Virus record (IMG/VR): IMGVR_UViG_3300045988_092736 | Coordinates: 43,380 to 107,379 of that record | DNA: 64,000 bases | Direction: 5' to 3' (one strand) | Source of the DNA: a virus | Shown: positions 335-48,852 of the stretch, piece by piece | Layout of the letters: every line of letters starts with the position of its first letter | How positions within the stretch are numbered: the first letter of the stretch is position 1 | The notes under the pieces: generated by a model | What the model saw: only the letters and a program-made list of their open reading frames with translations | Told to the model about the DNA's origin: nothing | The model's database searches: none | Made by a program: the position numbers and the translations under genes

Positions 335-1117
335 ATGAAGGAATTAAGAAAGAAAACATTTAAAAATGGTGTCGTGTATTGCCTTCAATTAGAAGATGGC
401 TTTCTAGTTGAAACTACAGACACGTTCTTACCTTATTACACCAAAGATGCAATAGGCAGACATCAAAACAAGCTTGATAACAATGAGCTTGGCGACCGTA
501 CAGAACGTTGGATGATTGGAGTATCTACAATGAGTGGGTGTCCAGTAAGATGCAAATTTTGCGCTACAGGCAACATGAAACGTTATCGCAATCTTACGGC
601 AGAAGAAATTGTAGAGCAGGTTGAATTTGCCGTCAATAAGGCAGGTGCTGACCCAAGCAAAGCAAAAGAGTTTAAAGTTAACTATACTCGTATGGGCGAG
701 CCATTTCTTAATATTGATGCAGTCAAAGAGGCTATTCGTATTATTACGGAGAAATATCCTAATACTCATCATTATGTATCAACGATTGGTATTAAGGGTA
801 GTGATTTCTCTTTCATTAATGGAAATATCACATTGCAGATTAGTTTGCATTCATTTGATGATGACAAGCGAAATTGGTTGATTCCTTATAAGAACAAAAT
901 GACAATTAAGGAGTTGGGACAGATTCGCACAGAAAGCAATCTGAAGACTACAATCAATCTTACACTTGTTGACACTTCTGATTTTGATGCAGAAAAGCTG
1001 AAAAAATGGTTTGATAAGGAGCATTTCTTCGTGAAGTTGTCTCCTATTAATGTGAATAACATATCAGAGAAAAATCACCTCGGCAATGGTGTTGTAGAAG
1101 GAATTAATTTAGTATGA
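335..1117 (+). CDS. radical SAM protein, RlmN/Cfr fold, lacking the N-terminal HhH domain and both class-A methyl-transfer cysteines
   Basis: 'GCPVRCKFCATG' matches the RlmN CxxxCxxC context (GCALECKFCSTA). 'NLTAEEIVEQV', 'MGEPFLN' and 'ISLHS' align with RlmN 'NLRVSEIIGQVW', 'MGMGEPLLN' and 'ISLHA'. No Cys at the C118- or C355-equivalent positions. Confidence 0.7.
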   Translation: MKELRKKTFKNGVVYCLQLEDGFLVETTDTFLPYYTKDAIGRHQNKLDNNELGDRTERWMIGVSTMSGCPVRCKFCATGNMKRYRNLTAEEIVEQVEFAVNKAGADPSKAKEFKVNYTRMGEPFLNIDAVKEAIRIITEKYPNTHHYVSTIGIKGSDFSFINGNITLQISLHSFDDDKRNWLIPYKNKMTIKELGQIRTESNLKTTINLTLVDTSDFDAEKLKKWFDKEHFFVKLSPINVNNISEKNHLGNGVVEGINLV

Positions 1118-1881
1118 AAAAGGGTATTTTCAGATATAGAATTATCACAAATCTGAATTGCAACATGAACGAAAGTACAGGAGTAAACGGAAATTGTTAC
1201 TTCTGCTACCAAAAGTTTAAGTCACCATTGCGACTGGATTGTGATAAGATGGAGGAAACTTTGAAGAAGGTTGGTGTTCTGAAAAGAGCAACTATCATGG
1301 GTGGTGAGAGTTTACTTAACCCAGAATTGGTAAAGATTGTAAAGATAGTCAGCAACTATACGTCAGATGGTATTTGTCTTGTTACAAATGGAATACTGCT
1401 TAATGAGGACATCATCGTAGCATTGAAAGATGCTGGATTAACTGAGGTTGCTATCAGTGTGTCTTCTATCGAGCAGTACGAAAGACGTAGAGACATGGCA
1501 CTTCAGTGTAAAGAGATTATTCCAAACACAAGAATAAACATTCCTAAGTGTAAGGAAAGCTTGAATCCACAATTGTTGGAAACAATACTGGAAGATGGCT
1601 TCTATAGCATTGTTTGTGAAGATTTACAGGCTAGATATGGTGAGATAAGACTCCCAAAAGGTTCTGTAAAGGTTGGCGATGACGGGTATGGATTTTACGA
1701 TTACAAGTGGAATGGTCATACATTTGGAGTATTTGGCAATTATGGGAAGTACAACCGAAGTGATATTATCGTAACTCCTCTTGGAAATTTCTGCGATTGG
1801 GAAAAGTACTGCAAGGCCGTTAAGAACAATGAACTTGTAAGAAGAAACAATCATATTGATGATGACAAAATTGTGCATTGA
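1114..1881 (+). CDS. second radical-SAM-like protein (MoaA/SPASM-like core, non-canonical Cys spacing)
   Basis: 'CNMNESTGVNGNCYFCY' gives Cx12CxxC. 'MGGESLLNPELV' is GGEP-like, 'LVTNG' and 'AISVSS' resemble core radical-SAM motifs. 4-nt overlap with the upstream gene. Confidence 0.5.
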   Translation: MKKGIFRYRIITNLNCNMNESTGVNGNCYFCYQKFKSPLRLDCDKMEETLKKVGVLKRATIMGGESLLNPELVKIVKIVSNYTSDGICLVTNGILLNEDIIVALKDAGLTEVAISVSSIEQYERRRDMALQCKEIIPNTRINIPKCKESLNPQLLETILEDGFYSIVCEDLQARYGEIRLPKGSVKVGDDGYGFYDYKWNGHTFGVFGNYGKYNRSDIIVTPLGNFCDWEKYCKAVKNNELVRRNNHIDDDKIVH

Positions 1882-2302
1882 TTTCGGGAGTGGCTATAAT
1901 CCAAAGACTGGATATAAAACTTGCGATGTAACAACCCTTCCACAATTGGACTTCCTGTATGATGGAAAAGATGAGATTGTCGGACTAAGAGAAAAATCAG
2001 TAGATGTATTCTATCTAAGAAACGTTGTTCATCATATCCCAGACTTACAGAGAACCTTCACAACCTTGAAGAAGTATCTGAAGGTAGGTGGAAAGCTGGT
2101 TATCATTGACTGCAATCAAGGTCATTACAAGACAAATGTATTTCTTGACAATTTGTGGTATAGATTTGTTGGCAACAACCACGAAATCTTTATCAGTAAA
2201 CAGTATAGAGATTACATCAATGTTTTGATCAAGTTAGGCTTTAAGCAATTATATTATAAATCATTTAAAGAAAAGGAGATTACTAAGTATGAATGCAATT
2301 AA
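1856..2302 (+). CDS. class I SAM-dependent methyltransferase
   Basis: Motif I 'IDFGSGYN', post-II 'DVFYLRNVVHHI', motif III 'LKVGGKLVIID'. Confidence 0.6.
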   Translation: MMMTKLCIDFGSGYNPKTGYKTCDVTTLPQLDFLYDGKDEIVGLREKSVDVFYLRNVVHHIPDLQRTFTTLKKYLKVGGKLVIIDCNQGHYKTNVFLDNLWYRFVGNNHEIFISKQYRDYINVLIKLGFKQLYYKSFKEKEITKYECN

Positions 2303-12385: not shown

Positions 12386-12473
12386 CAATGTCTTTAAGAG
12401 ATAAAGGCTTTAAAGTTTAACTATTAATTGCTGTTATGCAGCCGAGTCGGCACTCGTAAAACGGTTTGAGGAT

Positions 12474-12812
12474 ATGACAACTTCAATTAAGAACAAGATG
12501 AGAAAGGTAATGCAGTTGGCACATAGAGCCTATCAGTTGAAATCAAGTTCAATGTCTTGGGTTGAGTGCTTGAAACAGGCTTGGCAGGTCGTAAAGCTTG
12601 AGGCAGCGATGAAGACCAAGGTAGTAGAGTTCTTCTTTATGAAGATGAATGGTGAGGTAAGACAAGCCTTTGGTACTCTCCTTCAGAGCCACATTGACTA
12701 CACTCCAAATGGTACTGGTCATGCAGCATCAAGAGATTGCATCCGCTATTGGGATGAAGAAAAGGGCGCATGGAGACAATTCAAGGCTTACAACTTCTTG
12801 CGAGTTGCATAA
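12474..12812 (+). CDS. hypothetical protein, paralog of 25024..25359
   Basis: About 60% identity by eye: 'MSWVECLKQAWQVVKLE' with 'MSWAECLKQAWQVIKLK', 'KMNGEVRQAFGTL' with 'KMNGEIRQAFGTL'. Shared conserved leader. Confidence 0.5.
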   Translation: MTTSIKNKMRKVMQLAHRAYQLKSSSMSWVECLKQAWQVVKLEAAMKTKVVEFFFMKMNGEVRQAFGTLLQSHIDYTPNGTGHAASRDCIRYWDEEKGAWRQFKAYNFLRVA

Positions 12813-12862
12813 AGATATATACACGTTCTAAGGTGTTTGGCGAGGCTTTAATAGGGGTGAGC

Positions 12863-12890
12863 CTTTAATCACCCCTTTAGTTAAGGACTT
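12863..12890 (+). terminator. hairpin terminator candidate
   Basis: 'GGGGTGAgcctttaaTCACCCCtttag'. Confidence 0.35.
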
Positions 12891-15039: not shown

Positions 15040-15386
15040 ACGTTAAAAATTTGGTGGTTTGAAATAAATTTCGTACCTTTGCAACGAAATCCCAAGGTGG
15101 GAGGCGGTGGTGAGAACACCACCTCCCTGTTGGAAATCTAAGCTTTACAATTCAATTGTAAGAGCAACTTTGATTTTCCAAATCCGAATTGAAATATACA
15201 GTCTCATGCGGCTTTGGGATTTCATTTTACCTACTCTTTCAGGTTTTCGGCATCTCCTTTGCAATCTCTCATTGATTACACAGCAAAGATACGAAAAATA
15301 TTTGAAATATGCAAATTATTTCAAGATTATTTTTAGAAAACATGAAAATAAATTAGAGTTTCCTTGCATTTCTCGAAGGTTTTTGT

Positions 15387-24989: not shown

Positions 24990-25023
24990 GTAATTTAAGT
25001 TTAACGTTTAAAATTGAAAGATT

Positions 25024-25359
25024 ATGGCTACTACATTTAAGAATATGATGAGAGAAGTGATGAATATGGCACACAGAGCCTTTCAGCTTAAAGGTGCTTA
25101 TATGAGTTGGGCAGAATGCTTGAAGCAAGCTTGGCAGGTAATCAAGCTGAAGGCTCGCATGAAGAAGCAGGTTGTTGAGTTCTACTTTCAGAAGATGAAT
25201 GGTGAGATTCGTCAGGCTTTCGGCACTTTGATGGAGAGTCATATTGACTACACTACTAACGGCAAGGGTTACGCTTGCAAGGACTGCACAAAGTATTGGG
25301 ATGAAGTCAAGGGCGAGTGGAGACAATTCAAGAACTACAACTTGATTAGAGTTGCTTAA
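25024..25359 (+). CDS. hypothetical protein, paralog of 12474..12812
   Basis: See 12474. Confidence 0.5.
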   Translation: MATTFKNMMREVMNMAHRAFQLKGAYMSWAECLKQAWQVIKLKARMKKQVVEFYFQKMNGEIRQAFGTLMESHIDYTTNGKGYACKDCTKYWDEVKGEWRQFKNYNLIRVA

Positions 25360-27300: not shown

Positions 27301-27409
27301 ATTAAATAATTTGCATGTTTCAAATATTCTTTGTATCTTTGCATCGTAATTAAGAAACAAGGTTACTAATTTTAAAAGGTGAGACACACCGTAAAAACTG
27401 TGATTCGTT
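27301..27409 (+). promoter_or_regulatory. promoter-leader cassette, family A copy 1 (-7 TATCTTTG at 27334-27341, leader hairpin GGTGagacaCACC)
   Basis: About 95% identical to 48742-48852 over about 110 bp. Also related to 34060-34200. Confidence 0.55.
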
Positions 27410-31601: not shown

Positions 31602-32426
31602 ATGAAGAAAATTATCTTAATGTTTTGTTTTGCGATACTCGGCATGAGTGCGCTTACAAGTTGTCATTCGGTTTCTCCCGATGCAGACGAAGAAGCCGTA
31701 ATCGTAAAGAAGCCTTGGTTTATTGGGCATGGAGGTGTTGAACAGCAAGCAGTGCAGACTGGTCTCACTTGGTGTTGGTGGTCAACGAGTGGTTATTACT
31801 TCAAGATTGTTCCAGTCCGTCATGAGATTACCTTAGATGATTTGTTTAGTGACGATAACACGCCACTTGACTTCCATACTGTAATCATTACTCAGATTGA
31901 GCAAGGCAAGTCCCCAATTCTTTTGCAGAATTATGGAGAGAAATGGTTTGATACTAATCTCAACAATTATTTCTGCAATCTGGTTCGAGACCATATTTCT
32001 CAGCATTCCCCATTTGACTTGATGTCGAATCGGCAAGTGCTTAATCAGATTGACACCAAGATACGCAAGCAGATGCAGGACTATGTGAATGCTCTATCAA
32101 AGAAAAAGCAGATGCCTATCATCATAAAGGAGGTTATCATTGGTAAAGCTACACCAAACAAGGAACAGCTTAATGAAATGAACCGCACGGCAAAGGTCGT
32201 GCAAGCCAAGCAGACACAAGAACGTGAATATGAAGTGCAGATAGCAAGAGAAAAGGCTGAGCGACAAAAGGCAAAGGCAGATAAGGCATATATGGAAGAA
32301 ATGAACCTTTCCGCTGGTCAGTTTATCAACCTTAAGTGGATTGAAACAGTAGCAAATAAGCAAGGAGCTAATATTGATGTTATGGTTGGCCCTGCTGAAA
32401 GCATGTGGAATATAAGACGCAATTAA
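31602..32426 (+). CDS. lipoprotein with SPFH/band-7-like domain
   Basis: Signal peptide plus lipobox 'ALTSC'. C-terminal coiled Ala/Lys/Glu region and 'NIDVMVGP', as in SPFH proteins. Confidence 0.4.
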   Translation: MKKIILMFCFAILGMSALTSCHSVSPDADEEAVIVKKPWFIGHGGVEQQAVQTGLTWCWWSTSGYYFKIVPVRHEITLDDLFSDDNTPLDFHTVIITQIEQGKSPILLQNYGEKWFDTNLNNYFCNLVRDHISQHSPFDLMSNRQVLNQIDTKIRKQMQDYVNALSKKKQMPIIIKEVIIGKATPNKEQLNEMNRTAKVVQAKQTQEREYEVQIAREKAERQKAKADKAYMEEMNLSAGQFINLKWIETVANKQGANIDVMVGPAESMWNIRRN

Positions 32427-33289: not shown

Positions 33290-33311
33290 CAAGTACTTTT
33301 GTCATATTACA

Positions 33312-33385
33312 AGGAATGTAGCTCAGTAGTAGAGCACTTGGCTATGCAACCAAGGGGGCGTTGGTGCAAATCCAACCATTCCTTT
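33312..33385 (+). tRNA. tRNA-Cys: tRNA-Cys-like (GCA) with an apparent 8-nt anticodon loop
   Basis: Acceptor AGGAATG/CATTCCT, U8A9, D-stem GCTC/GAGC, anticodon stem CTTGG/CCAAG enclosing CTATGCAA, T-arm GTTGG-TGCAAAT-CCAAC, discriminator U as in tRNA-Cys. Confidence 0.5.
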
Positions 33386-33641: not shown

Positions 33642-33911
33642 ATGAAAAGTCCACTAAGAATGGCAGTCGCTTTAGAGAAGAATAATAAAGTATATCCGAA
33701 AGATGTACGGAAGTTCTTGATGGGATTGTATGCCACGTTACATTTGACAGATAATGCAACAGCAAAAGATATGGAGAAGTTGGTTTATTATGCTTTTCGG
33801 AATGGCTATCTGCTAGGTGTTAAGTCTGAAGGTGGTGATGACCAAAAAGCGTATGACAGACTGCCGGATTTGGGAGTAGAAGAAGATATTGGTGATGATT
33901 TAAGAAGATAG
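33642..33911 (+). CDS. hypothetical protein
   Basis: Intact ORF downstream of the tRNA cluster. Confidence 0.4.
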   Translation: MKSPLRMAVALEKNNKVYPKDVRKFLMGLYATLHLTDNATAKDMEKLVYYAFRNGYLLGVKSEGGDDQKAYDRLPDLGVEEDIGDDLRR

Positions 33912-33945: not shown

Positions 33946-33979
33946 AGGCTTTGGTGTGTGAACATCGAAGCCTTTTTTA
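33946..33979 (+). terminator. rho-independent terminator
   Basis: 'AGGCTTtggtgtgtgaacatcGAAGCCTTTTTT'. Confidence 0.65.
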
Positions 33980-34059
33980 TATATAATAAGGTATATAAAG
34001 AGGGTAATTGTTAATAACGTACATATATCAGTTACCGTAAGTTAAATAAACAAAGAAAA

Positions 34060-34200
34060 ACATTAAAATACTTGCATGTTTCAAAAGTTATTTGTATCTT
34101 TGCATCGTCAATCAAGATAAGTTGGTTGATTTGCCGAGTGACAAGTTTCACTCAATAAGGTGAGAGCGACACCAAGGGGTAAGACCCGAAACAACTAGCA
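34060..34200 (+). promoter_or_regulatory. promoter-leader cassette family A copy 3 (-7 at 34095-34102) with leader hairpins before the amidoligase gene
   Basis: 'acattaaaatacTTGcatgtttcaaaagttattTGTATCTTTGCATCGT', then hairpins GAGTGAcaagttTCACTC and GGTGagagcgaCACC. Confidence 0.5.
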
Positions 34201-34203
34201 CAA

Positions 34204-35139
34204 TTGATTATGTCTAAGCAGACTGGTTTTTCATTCGCAAGTTCAAAGAAGTCATTAATTGAGACTATTGACGAAATCAAGAAGTCAAAGATGTCTCGCA
34301 ACGAAAAGATTGTTGCATTGAAGGCTTGCGGTCTTCGTGAGAAAGAAATCTCCGATATGTTGAAGGTTTGTGTGCCAAGCGGTTCAACTTCAACGAGATT
34401 CGTTTATACATTCGGTGTTGAGATTGAATGTGTTCATGCCGAGCGCAATGCCTTGATAGAGGCAGGTCGTCAGAATGGTGTTGATATTCATTCTGAGGGT
34501 TATAACCACACCGATAACAAGAGCTATTTCAAGATTGTTAGTGATGCTTCAGTTGGTGGTGATGTTGACCCTAACGAGGTTGTAAGTCCGGTATTGAATG
34601 GCAATACAAATGGTATGGCAACTTTGAAGAAGGCTATCAAGTCTTTGGATGCTGTAGGTGCAAGAGTTAATTCTACTTGTGGTCTTCACGTTCATATCGG
34701 TGCAGCTAAGTTGACAGGTGAGCAGTATGTTAACGTTTTCAAGAATTATCAGAAGCTTGAAAGATTGATTGATAGTTTCATGGCTCCTTCAAGAAGAGGT
34801 AATTGCCGTTGGGCAGCCAGCTTGCTTGACAAGGATTTCTCTAATTGCCACGGCAATTACGATATTAGACGTAATGTATTTCATGGAGATAGATATTACA
34901 AGGTAAATGCTGAGAGCTATACACGTCACAAGACTATCGAGTTTCGCCAGCATCAAGGTTCAACCAATTATAAGAAGATTGAAATGTGGGTTAAGTTCTG
35001 CGCAAAGCTTGTCGGTTGGTCTCGAAACAATGTCTTCACTAGTGAGGTTATGAATATCGAAGATATACCTTTCTTGAATAAAGAAGAGAAGGCTTTCTTC
35101 CAGAGCCGTAAGGATGCATTTGCAGCCAATAATGATTAA
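34204..35139 (+). CDS. amidoligase-family enzyme (Amidoligase_2-like)
   Basis: 'FGVEIECVH', 'EVVSPVLNG' and 'TCGLHVHIGA' match the gamma-glutamyl-cysteine-synthetase-like amidoligase motifs of Iyer et al. 2009. Confidence 0.6.
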   Translation: MIMSKQTGFSFASSKKSLIETIDEIKKSKMSRNEKIVALKACGLREKEISDMLKVCVPSGSTSTRFVYTFGVEIECVHAERNALIEAGRQNGVDIHSEGYNHTDNKSYFKIVSDASVGGDVDPNEVVSPVLNGNTNGMATLKKAIKSLDAVGARVNSTCGLHVHIGAAKLTGEQYVNVFKNYQKLERLIDSFMAPSRRGNCRWAASLLDKDFSNCHGNYDIRRNVFHGDRYYKVNAESYTRHKTIEFRQHQGSTNYKKIEMWVKFCAKLVGWSRNNVFTSEVMNIEDIPFLNKEEKAFFQSRKDAFAANND

Positions 35140-35214
35140 TTAATGTAGTCCTAGGGTAAAAGCCCTAGGACACAAAAAACAAAGTATTACAAAGAAAAAA
35201 GAAAGGGTAAAGAT

Positions 35215-35748
35215 ATGTGTGTTATTATTGTATGTCCGAAAGGTGTTGCTTTGCCATCCGTAGATGAGCTGAAGGCTGCATATATGAGAAATCCAGATGG
35301 TTGTGGGTTCGTGAGCGAGTCTGACCATTACAAGAGTTTGCATTTCTCTACATTTATCCGTAGATTGATGAAGCGAGATATAAATGAAAATGTAATCATA
35401 CATTTTAGATTTGCTACTCATGGTTCTGTTTGTGTCAAGAATTGCCATCCATTCTATAAGGCAGGTTATTGGTTTGCACATAATGGAGTGCTCCCGATTT
35501 GCTCCGAGCATGATAAAACGGATAGTCAGATTTGCTTTGAGCGTTTCATTTATCCTACTATCAAGAAATATGGTTGGGGTTCTAATGAACATATGAAAGA
35601 AATGAATAAATGGACAGCTCATGGTTCTAAGTTTGCAATGTTGCATAATGGTGAGATTGTGAAGTCCGGTAAATTCATAGAGCGTGATGGACGGTTTTAT
35701 TCTAATTTGAATCATTTGGGTTATATGCGAAATATTATAAACTTTTAG
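35215..35748 (+). CDS. class II (Ntn-type) glutamine amidotransferase
   Basis: N-terminal 'MCVIIVCPKG' with Cys2 as the Ntn nucleophile. About 177 aa, YafJ-like. Adjacent to the amidoligase. Confidence 0.55.
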   Translation: MCVIIVCPKGVALPSVDELKAAYMRNPDGCGFVSESDHYKSLHFSTFIRRLMKRDINENVIIHFRFATHGSVCVKNCHPFYKAGYWFAHNGVLPICSEHDKTDSQICFERFIYPTIKKYGWGSNEHMKEMNKWTAHGSKFAMLHNGEIVKSGKFIERDGRFYSNLNHLGYMRNIINF

Positions 35749-35970
35749 ATGATTAATGTTTAGGTTCTTTTTATTCGACATGCGTCAGATGTCCGTGAGG
35801 ATGTTTGGCGTTTTTTTTTCGTTATATGCGAGTTTAATTTTGTATTACTACTAGTATACGATTTCATAATAAAATAGCCTTAAATCGCTTGTAAATGCCC
35901 TTATTGCTCACTTTTAGGCAAAAGTGAGATACTTGCAAACAGATTAGTGTGTTAATTATCCTTTTCGTAT

Positions 35971-35978
35971 TATCTTTG
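35971..35978 (+). promoter_or_regulatory. -7 promoter element TATCTTTG upstream of the scaffold-like gene
   Basis: 'cgtattatcTTTGcactag'. Confidence 0.4.
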
Positions 35979-36006
35979 CACTAGTTTTAACAAATATATC
36001 GAAAGA

Positions 36007-42321: not shown

Positions 42322-43428
42322 ATGTATAAAAACGAGCACAAGTTCCCTTATAGATGGACTAAAAAAGATGCTAATTTTACAAAAGACAAAGGTAAGGTGA
42401 TGTCTTGCTTTTGTTGTGGAGGTGGAAGTTCCTTTGGTTACAAACTAGCTGGATACGATGTTGTAGCCTGTAATGAGATAGACCCAAAGGTTATGAAGAT
42501 GTACTTGAAAAATCACGATGTCAAGTACGCTTTCAATTGTGATATTCGTGAGTTGATTACCAATATCAATATGGGGGGGCATATTATGAAAGAAGAGTTG
42601 CATAATTTGGATATATTGGATGCTAGTTTCCCATGTTCTGTATTCAGTATTGCAGGTGACCGCCAAAAGGCTTGGGGAAAGGAAAAAGTATTCCGAGAAG
42701 GTCAGAAGGCGCAAAGGCTTGACGATTTGGCTTTCTACTCTATTGACCTTGCTAAAGAACTAAAGCCAAAGGTGGTGGTTTTTGAGAATGTCCAAGGTTT
42801 GTTGCAAGGTGAAGCTATCGAGTACGTGAAAGAGATTTACAAGCAGATGGATAATGCCGGATATATCTTGCAGCATTGGTTGCTTAATGCACGTAATATG
42901 GGTGTTCCTCAGAATCGACCTAGGGTGTTCTTTCTAGGATTACGCAAAGACCTTTGCGAGCCGTTTATGGTTCAGAAGGATTTGTTCGAGCGAGTGCCTA
43001 AGATAGATATGGACTTCAACGAGAAAGAAATTGTCTTGGATGAGTTCTCGGACTATAATGGAAGACAGATTCCTAAAGGAATGATGAAGTATTGGGAGTA
43101 TAGAAACGAAAAGGACAATTCTATCGGTGATATTGTCAAGCGGATGGATAATCGTCTTTCTATGTTCAATAATATGTTTCTTAAAAAGAACAAGGTATGC
43201 AATACCATATCAGCAATGGAAGATAGACTTGTGTATTATGATAATCCAAGTTATCTTTCAGCACATGATACGATTTTAGCATCAACATTTCCGATGGATT
43301 ATGACTTTAATGGCATGAAACCTTGGTTTGCTTGCGGAATGTGTGTTCCTCCTGTTATGATGGCTAATGTAGCTACAAGAATCTGGGATTGTTGGTTATC
43401 AAAGATTAAAAAGGAGGAATGCGCATGA
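42322..43428 (+). CDS. DNA (cytosine-5)-methyltransferase
   Basis: Motif I 'FCCGGGSSFG', motif IV 'FPCSVFSIAG' (PC), motif VI 'VVVFENVQGLL' (ENV). Confidence 0.8.
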   Translation: MYKNEHKFPYRWTKKDANFTKDKGKVMSCFCCGGGSSFGYKLAGYDVVACNEIDPKVMKMYLKNHDVKYAFNCDIRELITNINMGGHIMKEELHNLDILDASFPCSVFSIAGDRQKAWGKEKVFREGQKAQRLDDLAFYSIDLAKELKPKVVVFENVQGLLQGEAIEYVKEIYKQMDNAGYILQHWLLNARNMGVPQNRPRVFFLGLRKDLCEPFMVQKDLFERVPKIDMDFNEKEIVLDEFSDYNGRQIPKGMMKYWEYRNEKDNSIGDIVKRMDNRLSMFNNMFLKKNKVCNTISAMEDRLVYYDNPSYLSAHDTILASTFPMDYDFNGMKPWFACGMCVPPVMMANVATRIWDCWLSKIKKEECA

Positions 43429-44162
43429 TAACAGCAAGTATGACATCGGGAGAGATGCGTAGAGTACGAAACTTAGATGAAGCTAGAATCTATGAGTTTC
43501 AGATGCGAAAAGCTAATGAGCTTAAACGTGAAATGAGAAAGCAGAACGTAAGACAAATAACAAAGACCTTTGAGCTTGCTACACCTAATGCCGATTATTT
43601 CATCGTTGTAGGTGTAAAACATGGCGATGTATTTGCTTCCGGTTTGTTCATTTATCTGAAGGAAACCAACGAGTATATTCCTATGAGTAGAAACGAGGGG
43701 TATAGCGAAGATTGTTTTGCTATGAGCGTTCATTTTCTGAAGAGATTTGCAGAAAGGTTTTTGAAAAAAGACTTACCGATTCTCAAGATATTGCAAAAGA
43801 TATATACATCGTTTACAGGTGCTGTTCAGCTCTATAGTGATGACAAGACAAGAAGAGTGGTATTTGCTATTCCGGAAGGGCTTATACTCACAGAATACGA
43901 GCAAGAAAAGCATATCATCCATTACAAAACCTTTGTAAGCATGGATATGCTAAAGAAGACACAGAAGCGGAGTTATGAGAAGATAAGTGCATTTCTCATG
44001 GAGTCTTGTCAGCAAATAGCTAAAGCAAGAGACACCGGAAATGACGAAAGGCTGTGCGTTGTGTACAGAAGGTTTTACAATGATATTGATTTGCTAGATA
44101 CAAAGGAGGCGCAAACCATATATTCAAGTTTCTTTGAAAAAGGAGGTAACAATGAAAGATAA
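43419..44162 (+). CDS. hypothetical protein
   Basis: Intact ORF. Confidence 0.4.
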   Translation: MRMITASMTSGEMRRVRNLDEARIYEFQMRKANELKREMRKQNVRQITKTFELATPNADYFIVVGVKHGDVFASGLFIYLKETNEYIPMSRNEGYSEDCFAMSVHFLKRFAERFLKKDLPILKILQKIYTSFTGAVQLYSDDKTRRVVFAIPEGLILTEYEQEKHIIHYKTFVSMDMLKKTQKRSYEKISAFLMESCQQIAKARDTGNDERLCVVYRRFYNDIDLLDTKEAQTIYSSFFEKGGNNER

Positions 44163-44655
44163 ATGTATAACAAGGTTTCTTGGTGATATAAAGCCTATAA
44201 AGAATTACGAAAGGTATTATGTTAGCAAGCTGGGACATGTTTTTACTATTGGGAGAACGTCTCAATTAAAGGAAATCGTACCTTGCAAGACACCAAAAGG
44301 TTATCTGAAGGTATGGCTTTACAAGAACGGAAAGCGCAAGATGTTTTATATCCATCGTTTGGTAGCTCAGGCTTTCTTGAAGAATCCAGAAGCGTTGCCG
44401 ATGGTGAATCATAAGGATTTCGACAAGACGAATAACGATGTAGACAACTTGGAGTATTGCACCGCAAGATACAATGTGATTTATTCTGCTATAGCAAAGA
44501 AGACTTCATCTGTATACTTGGGCGTGACGTGGAATAAGAACAACAGAAAATGGCAAGCTCAGTACCAGATAGGTAAGAAGAAAATTTATATCGGATGCTT
44601 TGGGACGCAAGAAGAAGCTCACGAAGCTTATGTTAACGCTATTAAAGAGATTTGA
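44152..44655 (+). CDS. HNH-AP2 homing endonuclease
   Basis: HNH_3 'VNHKDFDKTNNDVDNLEYCTARYN' plus AP2 'YLGVTWNKNNRKWQAQYQIGKKKIYIGCFGTQEEAHEAYVNAI'. ATG at 44152. Confidence 0.7.
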   Translation: MKDKCITRFLGDIKPIKNYERYYVSKLGHVFTIGRTSQLKEIVPCKTPKGYLKVWLYKNGKRKMFYIHRLVAQAFLKNPEALPMVNHKDFDKTNNDVDNLEYCTARYNVIYSAIAKKTSSVYLGVTWNKNNRKWQAQYQIGKKKIYIGCFGTQEEAHEAYVNAIKEI

Positions 44656-44656
44656 T

Positions 44657-45370
44657 ATGCTAGAATTAAACAGAATATACAATTCCGACTGTATAGAAGG
44701 AATGAAGCAAATAGAGAGTGGGGAGGTGGATTTGATTGTTACTGACCCTCCGTATTGCATAGCCTACAAGACTGGGTGGAGAGCTGACGACCATCGTTTC
44801 TCTAAGGAAATACTCAATGATGATAATGAGCAATTGATTATTGATTATATGAGCGAATGCTACCGGATTTTAAAGGATGATAGTGCTGCTTATATTTTCT
44901 GTAGTGCCAAGACCTTAGACTTTTTTATGCAACAAGCGAGGAATGCAGGGTTTACCATTAAGAATGTGCTCATTTGGCGAAAGAACAACCATACGGCTGG
45001 AGATTTAGAGGCGCAATATGGTCAATGTTACGAGCCAATCCTGTACTTGAATAAAGGCAGACGAACCATAAACGGCAAGCGTTTGGAGGACGTATGGGAC
45101 TTTGATAGAGTTCCATCAGATAAATTGGTACATCAGAACGAGAAGCCAATCCCCTTGCTTATGCAATGCATCTTGAAATCATCGAACGAAGGAGATTTGG
45201 TGTTTGATGGCTTTATGGGCAGCGCAAGTACTGCTCTGGCTTGTATGCGGACAAATCGGAATTACCTTGGTTTTGAATTGGATGAGGATTATTTCAAGGT
45301 GGCACAAAGAAGAATTAAGGAAGAATTGTTTAATCAAAAAGATATGTTTGGATATGCTGGAGTTAAATAG
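44657..45370 (+). CDS. DNA methyltransferase, N6-adenine/N4-cytosine class
   Basis: 'DLIVTDPPY', then 'EKPIPLLMQCI' and 'GDLVFDGFMGSASTALAC'. Start 'MLELNRIY' at 44657. Confidence 0.8.
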   Translation: MLELNRIYNSDCIEGMKQIESGEVDLIVTDPPYCIAYKTGWRADDHRFSKEILNDDNEQLIIDYMSECYRILKDDSAAYIFCSAKTLDFFMQQARNAGFTIKNVLIWRKNNHTAGDLEAQYGQCYEPILYLNKGRRTINGKRLEDVWDFDRVPSDKLVHQNEKPIPLLMQCILKSSNEGDLVFDGFMGSASTALACMRTNRNYLGFELDEDYFKVAQRRIKEELFNQKDMFGYAGVK

Positions 45371-46070
45371 AATTTATCAAGGTGATTGTCGAAAGCTTTT
45401 AAAGCTGATTGATAGTGATAGCATAGACCTCGTATGTTCCGATGTGGCTTATCCGGTTCAGTCTAGGGGTGGCTCAGGGAGTATGGGAGGATATTGGACG
45501 GAATCTCAAACAAGAAAGGGCAAAATATTCAAGAGTAACGATATTGATATTTCGGACTACATCAATGATTTGTACCGGATATTAAAGGACAGGTCGCATT
45601 GCTATCTTATGTGTAATGATTATAATTTAATGCACTTTCTTGATGTGGTAGGAAAGAGTGAGTTCCATTTTACCAAATGCTTAATATGGGATAAGTGCGC
45701 AAAAATATGTGGCCGCTATTATATGGCACAGAAAGAGTATATCATCATGCTACGCAAAGGTGGTGATAGACCGATAAATGAATGTGGTACATCTGACATT
45801 CTGAGTGTTCCTATTCCAACCAACAAGCGCAAGGATAAGGATGGTTTGATTAATCAGACTGAAAAACCTGTAAAGTTGATGGAGATATTAATTAGAAACT
45901 CGACAAATGTTGGTGATGTTGTTCTAGACCCATTCATGGGGAGCGGTACAACGGCAAGAGCTTGCGTAAACCTTGAAAGAAAGTATATAGGCTTTGAAAT
46001 AGACCAGCGTCAAGTAGATTTTGCTAATAACGAATTAAAGAATATGAGTAGGCAGTTAAGTCTGTTTTGA
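45354..46070 (+). CDS. second tandem paralogous DNA methyltransferase (same class)
   Basis: Starts 'MLELNRIYQGDC'. 'TEKPVKLMEILI' and 'GDVVLDPFMGSGTTARAC'. Variant catalytic motif 'SDVAYP'. Confidence 0.75.
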   Translation: MLELNRIYQGDCRKLLKLIDSDSIDLVCSDVAYPVQSRGGSGSMGGYWTESQTRKGKIFKSNDIDISDYINDLYRILKDRSHCYLMCNDYNLMHFLDVVGKSEFHFTKCLIWDKCAKICGRYYMAQKEYIIMLRKGGDRPINECGTSDILSVPIPTNKRKDKDGLINQTEKPVKLMEILIRNSTNVGDVVLDPFMGSGTTARACVNLERKYIGFEIDQRQVDFANNELKNMSRQLSLF

Positions 46071-46300: not shown

Positions 46301-46930
46301 ATGAGAAGAAGAAAGTTGAACAAGTCTCCAGTGCTAGGCTTCTGCGGATTTGTTATCGGTTACGAGTGCAAGGAAAAGGAAATAAAGCTGATGGAGTGCG
46401 ATAAGGCGCAAGCAGATGCAATCATAGTTCCTCATCACTTTTCACACAAGGTAACGAAGAATAGTTGCTTGAATCTTTTGGTATTGTACAAAGGCAAGAT
46501 TAGGGGTGCAATGCAAATAGGGTATGGAATCCGACCGCACATCAAGACTGAAAAGGGCGAAGTGTTGGATTACCATCAAGTAAGGGAATTTGACAGAATG
46601 TGGTTGTCTGATGATATGCCAAAGTATAGCGAGACGATTTGTCTTTCTCTCTTGCACAAGTATATAAGGGCAACGCATAAGGAAATCAAATACCTTATAT
46701 CTTATGCCGATACGTCCATAGGTAACAAGGGAATAATATATAAAGCTGCAAACTATGAGCATATTGATACCATTAAGGCAGATTTCTATGTATTACCAAG
46801 TGGTGAGCGTGTGCATCCGGTAACTATGTGGCATCGGCACAAGACAAGAGCATGGGAGGTTCTAACGGAACTATACCCAGGAATAAAAAAGGCAGAAGGG
46901 TTTCAACTTAAATTTCTGAAGAAGTTATGA
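46301..46930 (+). CDS. hypothetical protein in the methyltransferase island
   Basis: 209-aa ORF with no motif I recognise, tightly linked to the methyltransferases. Confidence 0.4.
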   Translation: MRRRKLNKSPVLGFCGFVIGYECKEKEIKLMECDKAQADAIIVPHHFSHKVTKNSCLNLLVLYKGKIRGAMQIGYGIRPHIKTEKGEVLDYHQVREFDRMWLSDDMPKYSETICLSLLHKYIRATHKEIKYLISYADTSIGNKGIIYKAANYEHIDTIKADFYVLPSGERVHPVTMWHRHKTRAWEVLTELYPGIKKAEGFQLKFLKKL

Positions 46931-48741: not shown

Positions 48742-48852
48742 ATTAAATAATTTGCATGTTTCAAATATTCTTTGTATCTTTGCATCGTAATTAAGAAATA
48801 AAGGTTACTAATTTTAAAAGGTGAGACACACCATAAAAACTGTAAGAAGAAA
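48742..48852 (+). promoter_or_regulatory. promoter-leader cassette family A copy 2 (-7 TATCTTTG at 48775-48782)
   Basis: Near-identical to 27301-27409, including the leader hairpin GGTGagacaCACC. Confidence 0.55.

What the first reader, a model, noticed from the sequence alone, without database searches (positions are those of the whole stretch)
34060..35748. Amidoligase plus class-II glutamine amidotransferase pair under a dedicated promoter-leader cassette
Gene 34204 carries the amidoligase signature (FGVEIE, EVVSP, GLHVHIG). Gene 35215 starts MCVIIV, a Cys2 Ntn-type glutamine amidotransferase. This pairing was predicted in phages (Iyer et al. 2009) to make amide- or peptide-linked adducts on an unknown substrate, and has never been biochemically resolved. 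Here it has its own strong promoter (family A), structured leader and terminators. It lies between the tRNA cluster and the structural genes, in a genome that also carries ThyX, dUTPase and three DNA methyltransferases. It could modify DNA bases, tRNAs or virion proteins.
Basis: partly seen in the sequence, partly recalled or inferred. Interest (0 to 1): 0.7.

Follow-up and report, generated by a model that had tools for sequence, protein, structure and literature searches.

The report
Phage amidoligase plus small Ntn-amidotransferase gene pair
A common human-gut (probably Segatella/Prevotella) phage carries a real, strongly conserved two-gene unit: an ATP-dependent amide-bond ligase and a small cysteine glutaminase-type hydrolase. 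This pairing has been catalogued in phages since 2009, and its substrate is still unknown.

Summary

The two genes sit between a predicted Bacteroidota-type promoter and a strong terminator. They are adjacent in 145 of 164 related loci and in 3 of 3 reciprocal look-ups. Both are under purifying selection (dN/dS 0.07 and 0.04).

The promoter/leader is not dedicated to this unit: the same promoter family drives at least 9 units in the window. No link to DNA modification, tRNAs or capsid proteins is supported beyond lineage synteny.

The pair is an already catalogued but biochemically unresolved association (Iyer 2009, PHROG annotations). I found no experimental resolution.

My favoured mechanism has moderate confidence. 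The ligase makes a gamma-glutamyl-type amide on an amine acceptor, and the Ntn partner cleaves a gamma-glutamyl amide. The main rival is glutamine-derived ammonia supply for amidation of a carboxylate.

Verdict: new member of a known kind, moderate interest.

The parts
33946..33981 (+). Terminator-like hairpin plus T-run that closes the upstream unit (89-aa ORF 33642-33911). It marks the 5' boundary of the cassette.
   Evidence: 12-bp stem, 5 GC pairs, TTTTTATATA tail; sequence.
34044..34108 (+). Copy of the recurrent Bacteroidota-type promoter element. It has TTGCATG at 34072-34078 and the -7 box TATCTTTGCA at 34095-34104. This is a predicted promoter and is shared with other units, so it is not dedicated to this one.
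   Evidence: Repeat family D1 with 6 copies. The -7 box TAnnTTTGCA occurs in 9 intergenic + strand sites and only 3 times on the minus strand.
34109..34209 (+). 5' leader of about 100 nt with three small predicted hairpins (34136-34153, 34159-34173, 34176-34187). The middle one is the recurrent GGTGAG-N-CACC motif.
   Evidence: Fold z=-2.4. No Rfam family. Motif found 5 times against 0.23 expected, with 4 copies in promoter-proximal leaders. The leader is not conserved in L054 and only partly in L003.
34210..35139 (+). Amidoligase_2 / carboxylate-amine ligase, 309 aa. It has an N-terminal three-helix domain (about residues 16-54), a GS/GCL-like catalytic core (67-270) and a conserved C-terminal IPFL...R helix.
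35144..35174 (+). Strong intergenic GC-rich hairpin between the two genes (CCUAGGG..CCCUAGG). It is followed by an A-rich tract, not a U-run, so it is not a canonical terminator. It may be a processing or stability element, or a partial attenuator.
   Evidence: Fold -20.3 kcal/mol, z=-5.1, 0 of 200 shuffles as stable.
35215..35748 (+). Minimal (177 aa) class-II / Ntn glutamine amidotransferase-like cysteine amidohydrolase. It has a Cys2 nucleophile and a glutamine (gamma-glutamyl) binding set R65, T68, N90, G91, D103.
35782..35820 (+). Intrinsic-terminator-like hairpin (13-bp stem) followed by T9. It marks the 3' boundary of the two-gene unit.
   Evidence: sequence.
35925..35980 (+). Next promoter copy (CTTGCAAAC ... 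TATCTTTGCA at 35971), heading the scaffold-like gene, the 153-aa gene and the major capsid gene. It shows the head genes are a separate predicted unit.
   Evidence: MCP is Phage_cap_E.

Best explanation
The unit is a self-contained, horizontally mobile two-enzyme amide-bond module of a Bacteroidales (probably Segatella copri) siphophage.

Shown:
- Gene 1 is a glutamine-synthetase/glutamate-cysteine-ligase-fold carboxylate-amine ligase.
- It keeps a full set of invariant acidic, His and Arg residues of the kind that bind metals and ATP in this fold. It should therefore activate a carboxylate with ATP (acyl-phosphate) and join it to an amine.
- Gene 2 is a trimmed Ntn cysteine amidohydrolase.
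- It keeps the residues that, in GlmS, hold the free alpha-carboxylate and alpha-amino group of glutamine. It must therefore act on glutamine itself or on a gamma-glutamyl-X amide with a free amino-acid head.

Inferred (my committed mechanism):
- The ligase uses the gamma-carboxylate of L-glutamate, as every characterised member of its fold does (GS, GCL, GmaS, PuuA-type, PafA).
- It makes a gamma-glutamyl amide on an amine acceptor.
- The acceptor could be a cell-envelope or other host amine, a polyamine, or a protein lysine.
- The Ntn partner hydrolyses that gamma-glutamyl amide.
- Together they form a writer/eraser, or a protect/deprotect couple.
- Analogous couples are EgtA/EgtC, PafA/Dop and glutathionylspermidine synthetase/amidase.

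The acceptor is not encoded next to the pair, so it is probably a host molecule or a widely conserved phage protein.
For: Identity:
-.

Glutamine/gamma-glutamyl pocket:
- R65, N90 and G91 align to GlmS Arg73, Asn98 and Gly99. TDS(E/Q) aligns to the Asp123 region.

Linkage:
- The amidotransferase-like gene is immediately downstream of the amidoligase in 84 of 84 loci (6 from metagenome assemblies, 78 from IMG/VR viral contigs) and in 61 of 80 genome loci.
- Three of 3 reciprocal look-ups found an amidoligase immediately upstream, or one small ORF upstream.
- The genes often lie within 0-4 nt of each other or overlap.

Partner evidence:
- In Bacillus, Geobacillus and Clostridium phages the same amidoligase family is paired with gamma-glutamyl cyclotransferase.
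- The only chemistry that enzyme offers is breaking a gamma-glutamyl-amine bond with a free alpha-amino group. It needs the same substrate head as the Ntn pocket.
- The ligase also occurs alone in Porphyromonas phages and Bacteroides mobile elements. This fits a writer with an optional eraser.

Selection:
- Both genes are under purifying selection as strong as the capsid gene.
Against: - No biochemical data exist, and the acceptor is unknown.
- Which carboxylate the ligase activates was not tested. The assignment to glutamate is by family analogy only, and there is no detectable sequence similarity to any solved ligase.
- In Arthrobacter phage Salgado, GGCT, amidoligase and amidotransferase are all adjacent. 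In LUZ24/O4-type phages both partner types also co-occur. So the amidotransferase-like protein and GGCT are not simple alternatives, and the amidotransferase may do something else there.
- A writer and an eraser expressed from one operon look futile unless they are regulated or separated by another step.
Confidence: 0.4

Rival explanations
1. Heteromeric glutamine-dependent amidase. The Ntn protein hydrolyses glutamine and passes ammonia to the ligase. The ligase activates a carboxylate on an unknown substrate with ATP and converts it to a carboxamide (R-COOH to R-CONH2). This is functionally like MurT/GatD, AsnB or Gat-QueC.
For: - Tight adjacency and frequent translational coupling suggest a stoichiometric complex.
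- Where GGCT and the amidotransferase co-occur with the ligase, the amidotransferase needs a role distinct from gamma-glutamyl cleavage.
- GS itself, which has the same fold, uses ammonia as its nucleophile.
Against: - From established knowledge, characterised class-II amidotransferases are almost always fused N-terminally to their acceptor domain. I know of no GS-fold enzyme that takes ammonia from an amidotransferase subunit.
- The ligase occurs without any amidotransferase in 19 of 80 genome loci and in Porphyromonas phages.
- In Firmicute phages the ligase is paired with GGCT, which cannot donate nitrogen.
- The colonic habitat is ammonia-rich, which would weaken the need for a glutamine-dependent donor. 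This last point is inference.
Confidence: 0.3
2. Protein-tagging system. The ligase attaches glutamate, or the C-terminal Glu of a small protein, to lysines of virion proteins (scaffold/capsid) or host proteins. The Ntn enzyme acts as the deamidase or isopeptidase, as Dop does for PafA.
For: - In one broad phage lineage the pair lies directly upstream of the scaffold, the roughly 150-aa gene and the major capsid genes.
- GGCT-family partners include enzymes acting on epsilon-(gamma-glutamyl)-lysine (established knowledge).
Against: - No conserved small Pup-like ORF accompanies the pair. The small neighbouring ORFs are unrelated to one another.
- Similarity to YbdK and GS is higher than to PafA.
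- Capsid adjacency is confined to one syntenic lineage and is absent in class-2 prophages, Arthrobacter, Bacillus and Pseudomonas phages.
- The head genes have their own predicted promoter.
Confidence: 0.12
3. Nucleic-acid modification. The pair amidates or glutamylates a DNA base or a tRNA nucleoside.
For: - The window carries several DNA-modification genes: a C5 methyltransferase, two N6/N4 methyltransferases and a Mom-family protein.
- A tRNA array lies 750 nt upstream.
- The ligase has an unassigned N-terminal three-helix domain with an HTH-like sequence pattern.
Against: - The methyltransferase/Mom cluster is 6.5-11 kb away, downstream of another predicted promoter (41544).
- No hydroxymethylase, kinase/pyrophosphorylase, DpdA or QueE-type genes were found among the ORFs scanned.
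- The N-terminal domain has no significant match to any HTH or nucleic-acid-binding family.
- tRNA proximity is not above a rough chance expectation.
- The pair occurs in many contexts lacking such genes.
Confidence: 0.05
4. Auxiliary metabolic genes that simply rewire host glutamine/glutamate or gamma-glutamyl-peptide pools during infection. This is the 'AMG' reading used in several phage-genome papers.
For: - Papers interpret the genes this way.
- The enzymes belong to central nitrogen-metabolism superfamilies.
Against: - The family is phage- and mobile-element-specific, not a copy of a host housekeeping enzyme. There is no NCBIfam equivalog for the ligase and no sequence similarity to any solved GS or GCL.
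- The extra conserved N- and C-terminal modules suggest specific target recognition.
Confidence: 0.08

Closest known systems
Phage Amidoligase_2 (PF12224) plus GAT-II-like Ntn 'thiol peptidase' association (Iyer, Abhiman, Burroughs & Aravind 2009, Mol Biosyst 5:1636). It is also recorded, from my memory, in the Pfam family description.
   Same: - The same two families in the same order and on the same strand.
- Found on phages and mobile elements.
- Substrate unknown.
- Adjacent in Arthrobacter phages Ottawa and Salgado; present in the same phage genomes in OM43 phages.
   Different: - Here the Ntn protein is a minimal 177 aa, against about 300-490 aa in the Arthrobacter and Pseudomonas phages.
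- The ligase carries a conserved N-terminal three-helix domain and a C-terminal IPFL..R helix.
- The subfamily is confined mainly to Bacteroidales phages and prophages.
Multi-ligase cassettes of LUZ24-like, O4/Zobellviridae and Rhizobium phages (COOH-NH2_lig + Amidoligase_2 + ATP-grasp + one or two GAT-II proteins; LUZ24-like phages also GGCT).
   Same: They share the Amidoligase_2 and GAT-II components and a phage setting.
   Different: - The window unit has only two genes between its promoter and terminator.
- No second ligase, ATP-grasp or GGCT was found in the unit or among the ORFs scanned.
- Identity to those amidoligases is only about 25-28%.
EgtA/EgtC of ergothioneine biosynthesis (gamma-glutamyl-cysteine ligase plus class-II GATase-like gamma-glutamyl amidohydrolase).
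   Same: - A GCL-superfamily ligase is paired with a stand-alone Cys-Ntn hydrolase that removes a gamma-glutamyl group.
   Different: - None of the ORFs I scanned matched anything EgtB/EgtD-like.
- About 16% identity only.
- A different biological setting.
- This is similarity of logic, not membership.
PafA/Dop pupylation system, and glutathionylspermidine synthetase/amidase.
   Same: - An ATP-dependent amide 'writer' is encoded with its own amide 'eraser'.
   Different: - No Pup-like tag gene.
- The eraser here has an Ntn fold, not GS-like or CHAP.
- The structural match is weaker than to YbdK and GS.
MurT/GatD and Gat-QueC (glutamine-dependent amidation of a carboxylate).
   Same: The concept of a separate or fused glutaminase feeding an ATP-dependent amidating enzyme. 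This is the main rival mechanism.
   Different: - Those use Mur-ligase or PP-loop synthetase folds, and MurT/GatD uses a class-I glutaminase.
- No GS-fold example is known to me.

Membership tests
Amidoligase_2 (PF12224) within the GS/GCL carboxylate-amine ligase superfamily | Profile match above the curated threshold | tested here: met
   117.1 bits against cutoff 22, E=1.5e-33, profile 3-245 of 245. phrog_2443 E=2.8e-53.
Amidoligase_2 (PF12224) within the GS/GCL carboxylate-amine ligase superfamily | Glutamine-synthetase-like catalytic fold | tested here: met
Amidoligase_2 (PF12224) within the GS/GCL carboxylate-amine ligase superfamily | Conserved acidic/His/Arg constellation for metal, ATP and acyl-phosphate chemistry | tested here: inconclusive
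   E71, E73, E123, H160, H162, R195, R196, R228, E244, R246 and H248 are invariant in 37 sequences. Assigning them to specific GS catalytic positions is by pattern only. No residue-level superposition was possible.
Amidoligase_2 (PF12224) within the GS/GCL carboxylate-amine ligase superfamily | Conserved neighbourhood with a GAT-II-like Ntn protein or an AIG2/GGCT protein | tested here: met
   The amidotransferase-like gene is adjacent in 84/84 and 61/80 loci. GGCT is the partner in Bacillus and Geobacillus phages and Clostridium prophages.
Amidoligase_2 (PF12224) within the GS/GCL carboxylate-amine ligase superfamily | ATP-dependent carboxylate-amine ligation activity | not testable with these tools
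   Needs enzyme assays.
Class-II (Ntn) glutamine amidotransferase | N-terminal nucleophile Cys directly after the initiator Met | tested here: met
   MCVIIV. M1 and C2 are invariant in 38/38.
Class-II (Ntn) glutamine amidotransferase | Profile match above the curated threshold | tested here: met
   GATase_4 gives 28.7 bits against cutoff 23, but covers only residues 47-95. GATase_6 is below its cutoff at 22.6 against 27.
Class-II (Ntn) glutamine amidotransferase | Ntn alpha-beta-beta-alpha fold | tested here: met
Class-II (Ntn) glutamine amidotransferase | Glutamine-binding and oxyanion residues (GlmS Arg73, Thr76, Asn98, Gly99, Asp123) | tested here: met
   The HMM alignment places query 61-94 on GlmS 69-102, giving R65=Arg73, T68=Thr76, N90=Asn98, G91=Gly99. 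The invariant T102-D103-S104 aligns with the TDSE of PA1307. Its equivalence to Asp123 is inferred.
Class-II (Ntn) glutamine amidotransferase | Coupling to an acceptor (synthase) domain through an ammonia channel | not testable with these tools
   The protein is not fused to any acceptor domain. Complex modelling was not available.
Pup ligase/deamidase (PafA/Dop) tagging system | Small tag protein with C-terminal Gln/Glu encoded with the enzymes | tested here: not met
   The window has no ORF between or after the genes. Small ORFs in other loci are mutually unrelated.
LUZ24/O4-type multi-ligase phage cassette | Additional COOH-NH2_lig and ATP-grasp ligases (plus GGCT in the LUZ24-like version) in the same cluster | tested here: not met
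   The unit is bounded by promoter 34044-34108 and terminator 35782-35820 and has only two genes. The neighbours are tRNAs, an 89-aa ORF and head genes.
Known anti-phage defence systems (PADLOC) | Match to a defence-system protein model | tested here: not met
   No hit for either protein.
Moron-like autonomous accessory cassette | Own promoter and terminator, and variable position among related phages | tested here: met
   Predicted promoter and terminators. The same pair is found before the head genes, before the terminase module, beside repressors and after tail genes. Transcription itself is not tested.

The most novel reading that the evidence does not exclude
The pair is a phage-encoded reversible gamma-glutamylation system acting on macromolecular amines: protein lysines of virion or host proteins, or cell-envelope amines. 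That would make it a previously undescribed post-translational or envelope modification used by very abundant human-gut Bacteroidales phages. The conserved N-terminal three-helix and C-terminal modules of the ligase would serve as the target-recognition device.
Probability: 0.12. Interest if true: 0.8.

Novelty: new member of a known kind. Interest (0 to 1): 0.35.

Why it matters
- The amidoligase/amidotransferase pairing is one of the older unresolved comparative-genomic predictions for phages (2009).
- This window shows a minimal version: two genes and no other ligases.
- The version is extremely common. The two proteins fall in 90%-identity clusters with 2440 and 1133 member sequences.
- At least 514 IMG/VR contigs and 228 genome loci encode relatives.
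- It sits in a prevalent human-gut phage, probably of Segatella copri.
- The genes are small and strongly selected, and the AF2 models are confident. That makes this a convenient entry point for assays that would settle whether the module writes and erases gamma-glutamyl amides or performs glutamine-dependent amidation, and on what substrate.
- In itself the finding adds no new kind of system.

Tried and rejected
1. 7-deazaguanine idea (the amidoligase and amidotransferase replacing QueC). The two radical-SAM genes at 335-1881 are RlmN/Cfr-like and MoaA/viperin-like, not QueE. No other pathway genes were seen. Rejected.
2. Mom link. A Mom-family gene exists, but it is 11 kb away in a separate methyltransferase cluster, and phage Mu needs no amidoligase. 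No support.
3. N-terminal domain as an HTH. A profile search of PDB and per-member Pfam scans gave only non-significant hits with E of 0.01 or higher. Left unassigned.
4. A conserved third component or tag peptide. The small ORFs between or after the genes are unrelated. Rejected.
5. Structured leader as a riboswitch or cis-regulator. No Rfam hit, z only -2.4, and not conserved at 73% protein identity. Only a short hairpin motif recurs.
6. tRNA association, including a Glu-tRNAGln transamidation idea prompted by the adjacent tRNA-Glu and tRNA-Gln. tRNA identities differ between contexts (Val, Arg, Pro), and the frequency fits a rough chance estimate. Not supported.
7. Defence-system membership. 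No PADLOC hit.
8. Sequence search of solved structures for the ligase. Nothing. Only fold comparison works.
9. Literature. Iyer 2009 itself is not held. Eight searches found only annotations and speculation: cell-wall modification or superinfection exclusion, secondary metabolites, nitrogen AMGs.
Full report
**1. Observation**

ORF 34204-35139 probably starts at ATG 34210. Its closest homologues are 309 aa with full coverage.

It matches Pfam Amidoligase_2 at E=1.5e-33, far above threshold. It also matches the PHROG family annotated 'amidoligase enzyme' at 2.8e-53.

ORF 35215-35748 begins MCVIIV. It passes the GATase_4 gathering score, although only residues 47-95 align to the Pfam model. NCBIfam gives only weak GlmS and PurF hits over the same stretch.

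Their key residues are invariant across 37 and 38 diverse homologues.

**2. Structure**

AF2 models are confident: pLDDT 88.1 for the ligase and 95.7 for the Ntn protein.

A profile alignment puts R65, T68, N90 and G91 on GlmS Arg73, Thr76, Asn98 and Gly99. It puts the invariant TDS motif on the TDSE of PA1307. By established knowledge of GlmS, these residues hold the alpha-carboxylate and alpha-amino group of glutamine and form the oxyanion hole.

So the protein is a bona fide, trimmed (177 aa against about 240) class-II Ntn amidohydrolase. It recognises glutamine or a gamma-glutamyl amide with a free amino-acid head.

The ligase also has two family-specific additions:
- An N-terminal three-helix domain (residues about 16-54; K33 invariant, G41 nearly so).
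- A C-terminal 'IPFL...R' helix.

The N-terminal domain has an HTH-like sequence pattern but no significant match to anything.

**3. Transcription-unit anatomy**

All of this is predicted from sequence. Nothing has been measured.

- A 65-nt element with the Bacteroidota promoter shape (TTG ... 20 nt ... TAnnTTTG) lies at 34044-34108. It belongs to a family whose -7 box (TAnnTTTGCA) occurs in 9 intergenic + strand sites in the window. These include the sites in front of the tRNA array (32871) and the head genes (35971). The promoter is therefore real as a family but not dedicated to this unit.
- The leader of about 100 nt folds modestly better than shuffles (z=-2.4). It matches no Rfam family.
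- The leader is not conserved in a relative with 73% protein identity.
- The leader's central hairpin, GGTGAG-N-CACC, recurs in three other promoter-proximal leaders of the window and in locus L003. There are 5 matches against 0.23 expected.
- A very stable hairpin sits between the two genes (35144-35174, z=-5.1). It has no U-run.
- Strong terminator-like hairpins bracket the unit at 33946-33973 and 35782-35811.

The architecture is that of a moron-like autonomous cassette.

**4. Comparative genomics**

The window is a siphophage, with a tape-measure protein, a lambda-E-type capsid protein and ThyX. It is nearly identical to dozens of human-gut IMG/VR contigs. It is 97% identical at this locus to a contig binned with Segatella copri.

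Family size:
- The ligase has at least 1200 database relatives and the Ntn protein at least 657.
- At least 514 viral contigs and 228 loci in representative genomes encode a relative. Almost all are Bacteroidales.

Linkage:
- In all 84 loci from metagenome and viral collections, the Ntn gene follows the ligase on the same strand.
- In genome contigs it does so in 61 of 80.
- Three divergent Ntn proteins looked up reciprocally each have an Amidoligase_2 gene immediately upstream, or one small ORF upstream.

The pair appears in different surroundings:
- Directly before the scaffold, the roughly 150-aa gene and the major capsid genes in one broad lineage.
- At the head of the WYL_2 / PAPS-reductase / terminase module beside cI-like repressors in Bacteroides and Prevotella prophages.
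- Between tail genes and repressors.

The capsid adjacency is lineage synteny: MCP identity of 57-76% tracks ligase identity of 50-73%.

The more distant ligase clade (about 34% identity) stands alone in Bacteroides mobile elements and Porphyromonas phages.

In cultured phages the same ligase family is annotated with the following partners:
- A glutamine amidotransferase (Arthrobacter phage Ottawa).
- Gamma-glutamyl cyclotransferase (Bacillus 031MP004 and PBC5, Geobacillus GR1, Clostridium prophages).
- Both (Arthrobacter phage Salgado).
- Further ligases (Pseudomonas O4, Klebsiella Klyazma, Rhizobium and LUZ24-like phages).

Within the window's own species-level population both genes evolve under strong purifying selection. 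dN/dS is 0.07 and 0.04, against 0.065 for the capsid gene. The caveat is that these are pairwise comparisons to the window and are not phylogenetically independent.

**5. Mechanism**

What is shown:
- An ATP-type carboxylate-amine ligase fold with an intact conserved polar core.
- A Cys-Ntn amidohydrolase with an intact glutamine/gamma-glutamyl pocket.
- Obligatory-looking co-inheritance.
- No conserved third gene.

What is inferred rests on three points:
- Every characterised enzyme of the ligase's fold activates the gamma-carboxylate of glutamate, either free or at a protein C-terminus.
- Both alternative partners (the Ntn protein and GGCT) act on a gamma-glutamyl amide with a free alpha-amino group.
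- The ligase can exist alone.

From these I favour, at about 0.4, a writer/eraser or protect/deprotect couple. The ligase gamma-glutamylates an amine acceptor, and the Ntn enzyme hydrolyses gamma-glutamyl amide. The logic is that of EgtA/EgtC, PafA/Dop and glutathionylspermidine synthetase/amidase.

The main rival, at about 0.3, is a heteromeric glutamine-dependent amidase (R-COOH to R-CONH2). Two points favour it. The best structural match is a true glutaminase. In some phages the amidotransferase and GGCT co-occur, so the amidotransferase must do something different from GGCT there.

Other readings are less likely:
- Protein tagging of virion or host proteins (about 0.12).
- Nucleic-acid modification (about 0.05).
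- A generic nitrogen AMG (about 0.08).

The acceptor is not identifiable from sequence. The literature's guess is cell-wall modification for superinfection exclusion. Papers attribute it to Iyer 2009. It remains untested.

**6. Comparison with known systems and novelty**

The association was described in 2009. From my memory, it is also written into the Pfam description of PF12224. It is routinely annotated in cultured phages. No functional study appears in the searchable literature. Papers from 2023-2024 still call the function unknown.

The present case is a new member. It belongs to a distinct, very abundant Bacteroidales-phage subfamily with a minimal Ntn partner and extra ligase modules. 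The kind is known but uncharacterised.

It fails the membership tests for the multi-ligase cassette, for a Pup-like system and for known defence systems.

**7. Verdict**

Interest is moderate (0.35). The value lies in offering a minimal, prevalent and tractable version of a long-standing unresolved phage enzyme pair, not in a new type of system.

Noticed in passing
window 15109-15123, 27378-27390, 34159-34173, 48820-48832 (also 12856-12873): The short hairpin motif GGTGAG-N(2-8)-CACC occurs 5 times against 0.23 expected. Four copies lie 35-65 nt downstream of a family-A promoter -7 box, in the 5' leaders of unrelated genes. A similar motif is in the leader of the amidoligase in locus L003. It may be a shared leader element for stability, processing or translation.
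   Followed up: partly
window 46301-46930 (+): A Mom-family protein (PF25680, E=2.9e-35) closes a DNA-modification cluster. The cluster holds a C5 cytosine methyltransferase (42322-43428), an HNH/AP2 endonuclease (44134-44655) and two N6/N4 methyltransferases (44600-45370, 45204-46070). This suggests adenine carbamoylmethylation-type DNA modification in this gut phage.
   Followed up: no
window 335-2302 (+): Two adjacent radical-SAM genes, followed by a small SAM-methyltransferase-like ORF (1856-2302). One is RlmN/Cfr-like (335-1117; TIGR00048 E=7.9e-23 but far below cutoff). The other is MoaA/viperin-like (1114-1881). This is an unusual phage trio of unknown role.
   Followed up: partly
window 33311-33385 (+): One of the five clustered tRNAs is called by ARAGORN with a 4-nt anticodon ('atgc'; 'tggt' in the near-identical locus L007). 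It still scores 59.6 bits as a tRNA in Rfam. It may have an odd anticodon loop, or it may be a suppressor or frameshift-type tRNA.
   Followed up: no
window 35144-35174 (+): A very stable GC-rich hairpin (z=-5.1) lies between the amidoligase and amidotransferase genes, without a U-tract. It could set the expression ratio of the two genes or be an RNA processing or stability site.
   Followed up: partly
L166 6007-8196; L155-L168: A distant clade (about 34% identity) of the amidoligase keeps the N-terminal three-helix domain but lacks any amidotransferase partner. In L166 it sits in the Bacteroides chromosome next to a ParA-like gene, suggestive of a conjugative or mobile element. Porphyromonas phages (L085) also carry the ligase alone.
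   Followed up: partly
window 12473-12812 and 25023-25359; L001 7412-7756: The window has two paralogous WYL_2 (Sm-like SH3) genes (72-82% DNA identity over the repeated stretches D2 and D13), each downstream of a family-A promoter. In class-2 prophages (L001) a WYL_2 gene lies directly downstream of the amidoligase/amidotransferase pair. This may be coincidence.
   Followed up: no
L001, L064, L070, L094, L106, L109 (about 0.25-0.7 kb after the amidotransferase gene): A tRNA-Val (GAC or AAC) gene recurs just downstream of the pair in several prophage clusters. Overall tRNA proximity (18 of 57 clusters within 6 kb) looks compatible with chance. The repeated tRNA-Val is unexplained.
   Followed up: partly
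window 31602-32426 (+): An SPFH/Band-7 domain protein with a lipoprotein-like signal peptide is encoded about 0.6 kb upstream of the tRNA array. This is uncommon cargo for a phage.
   Followed up: no
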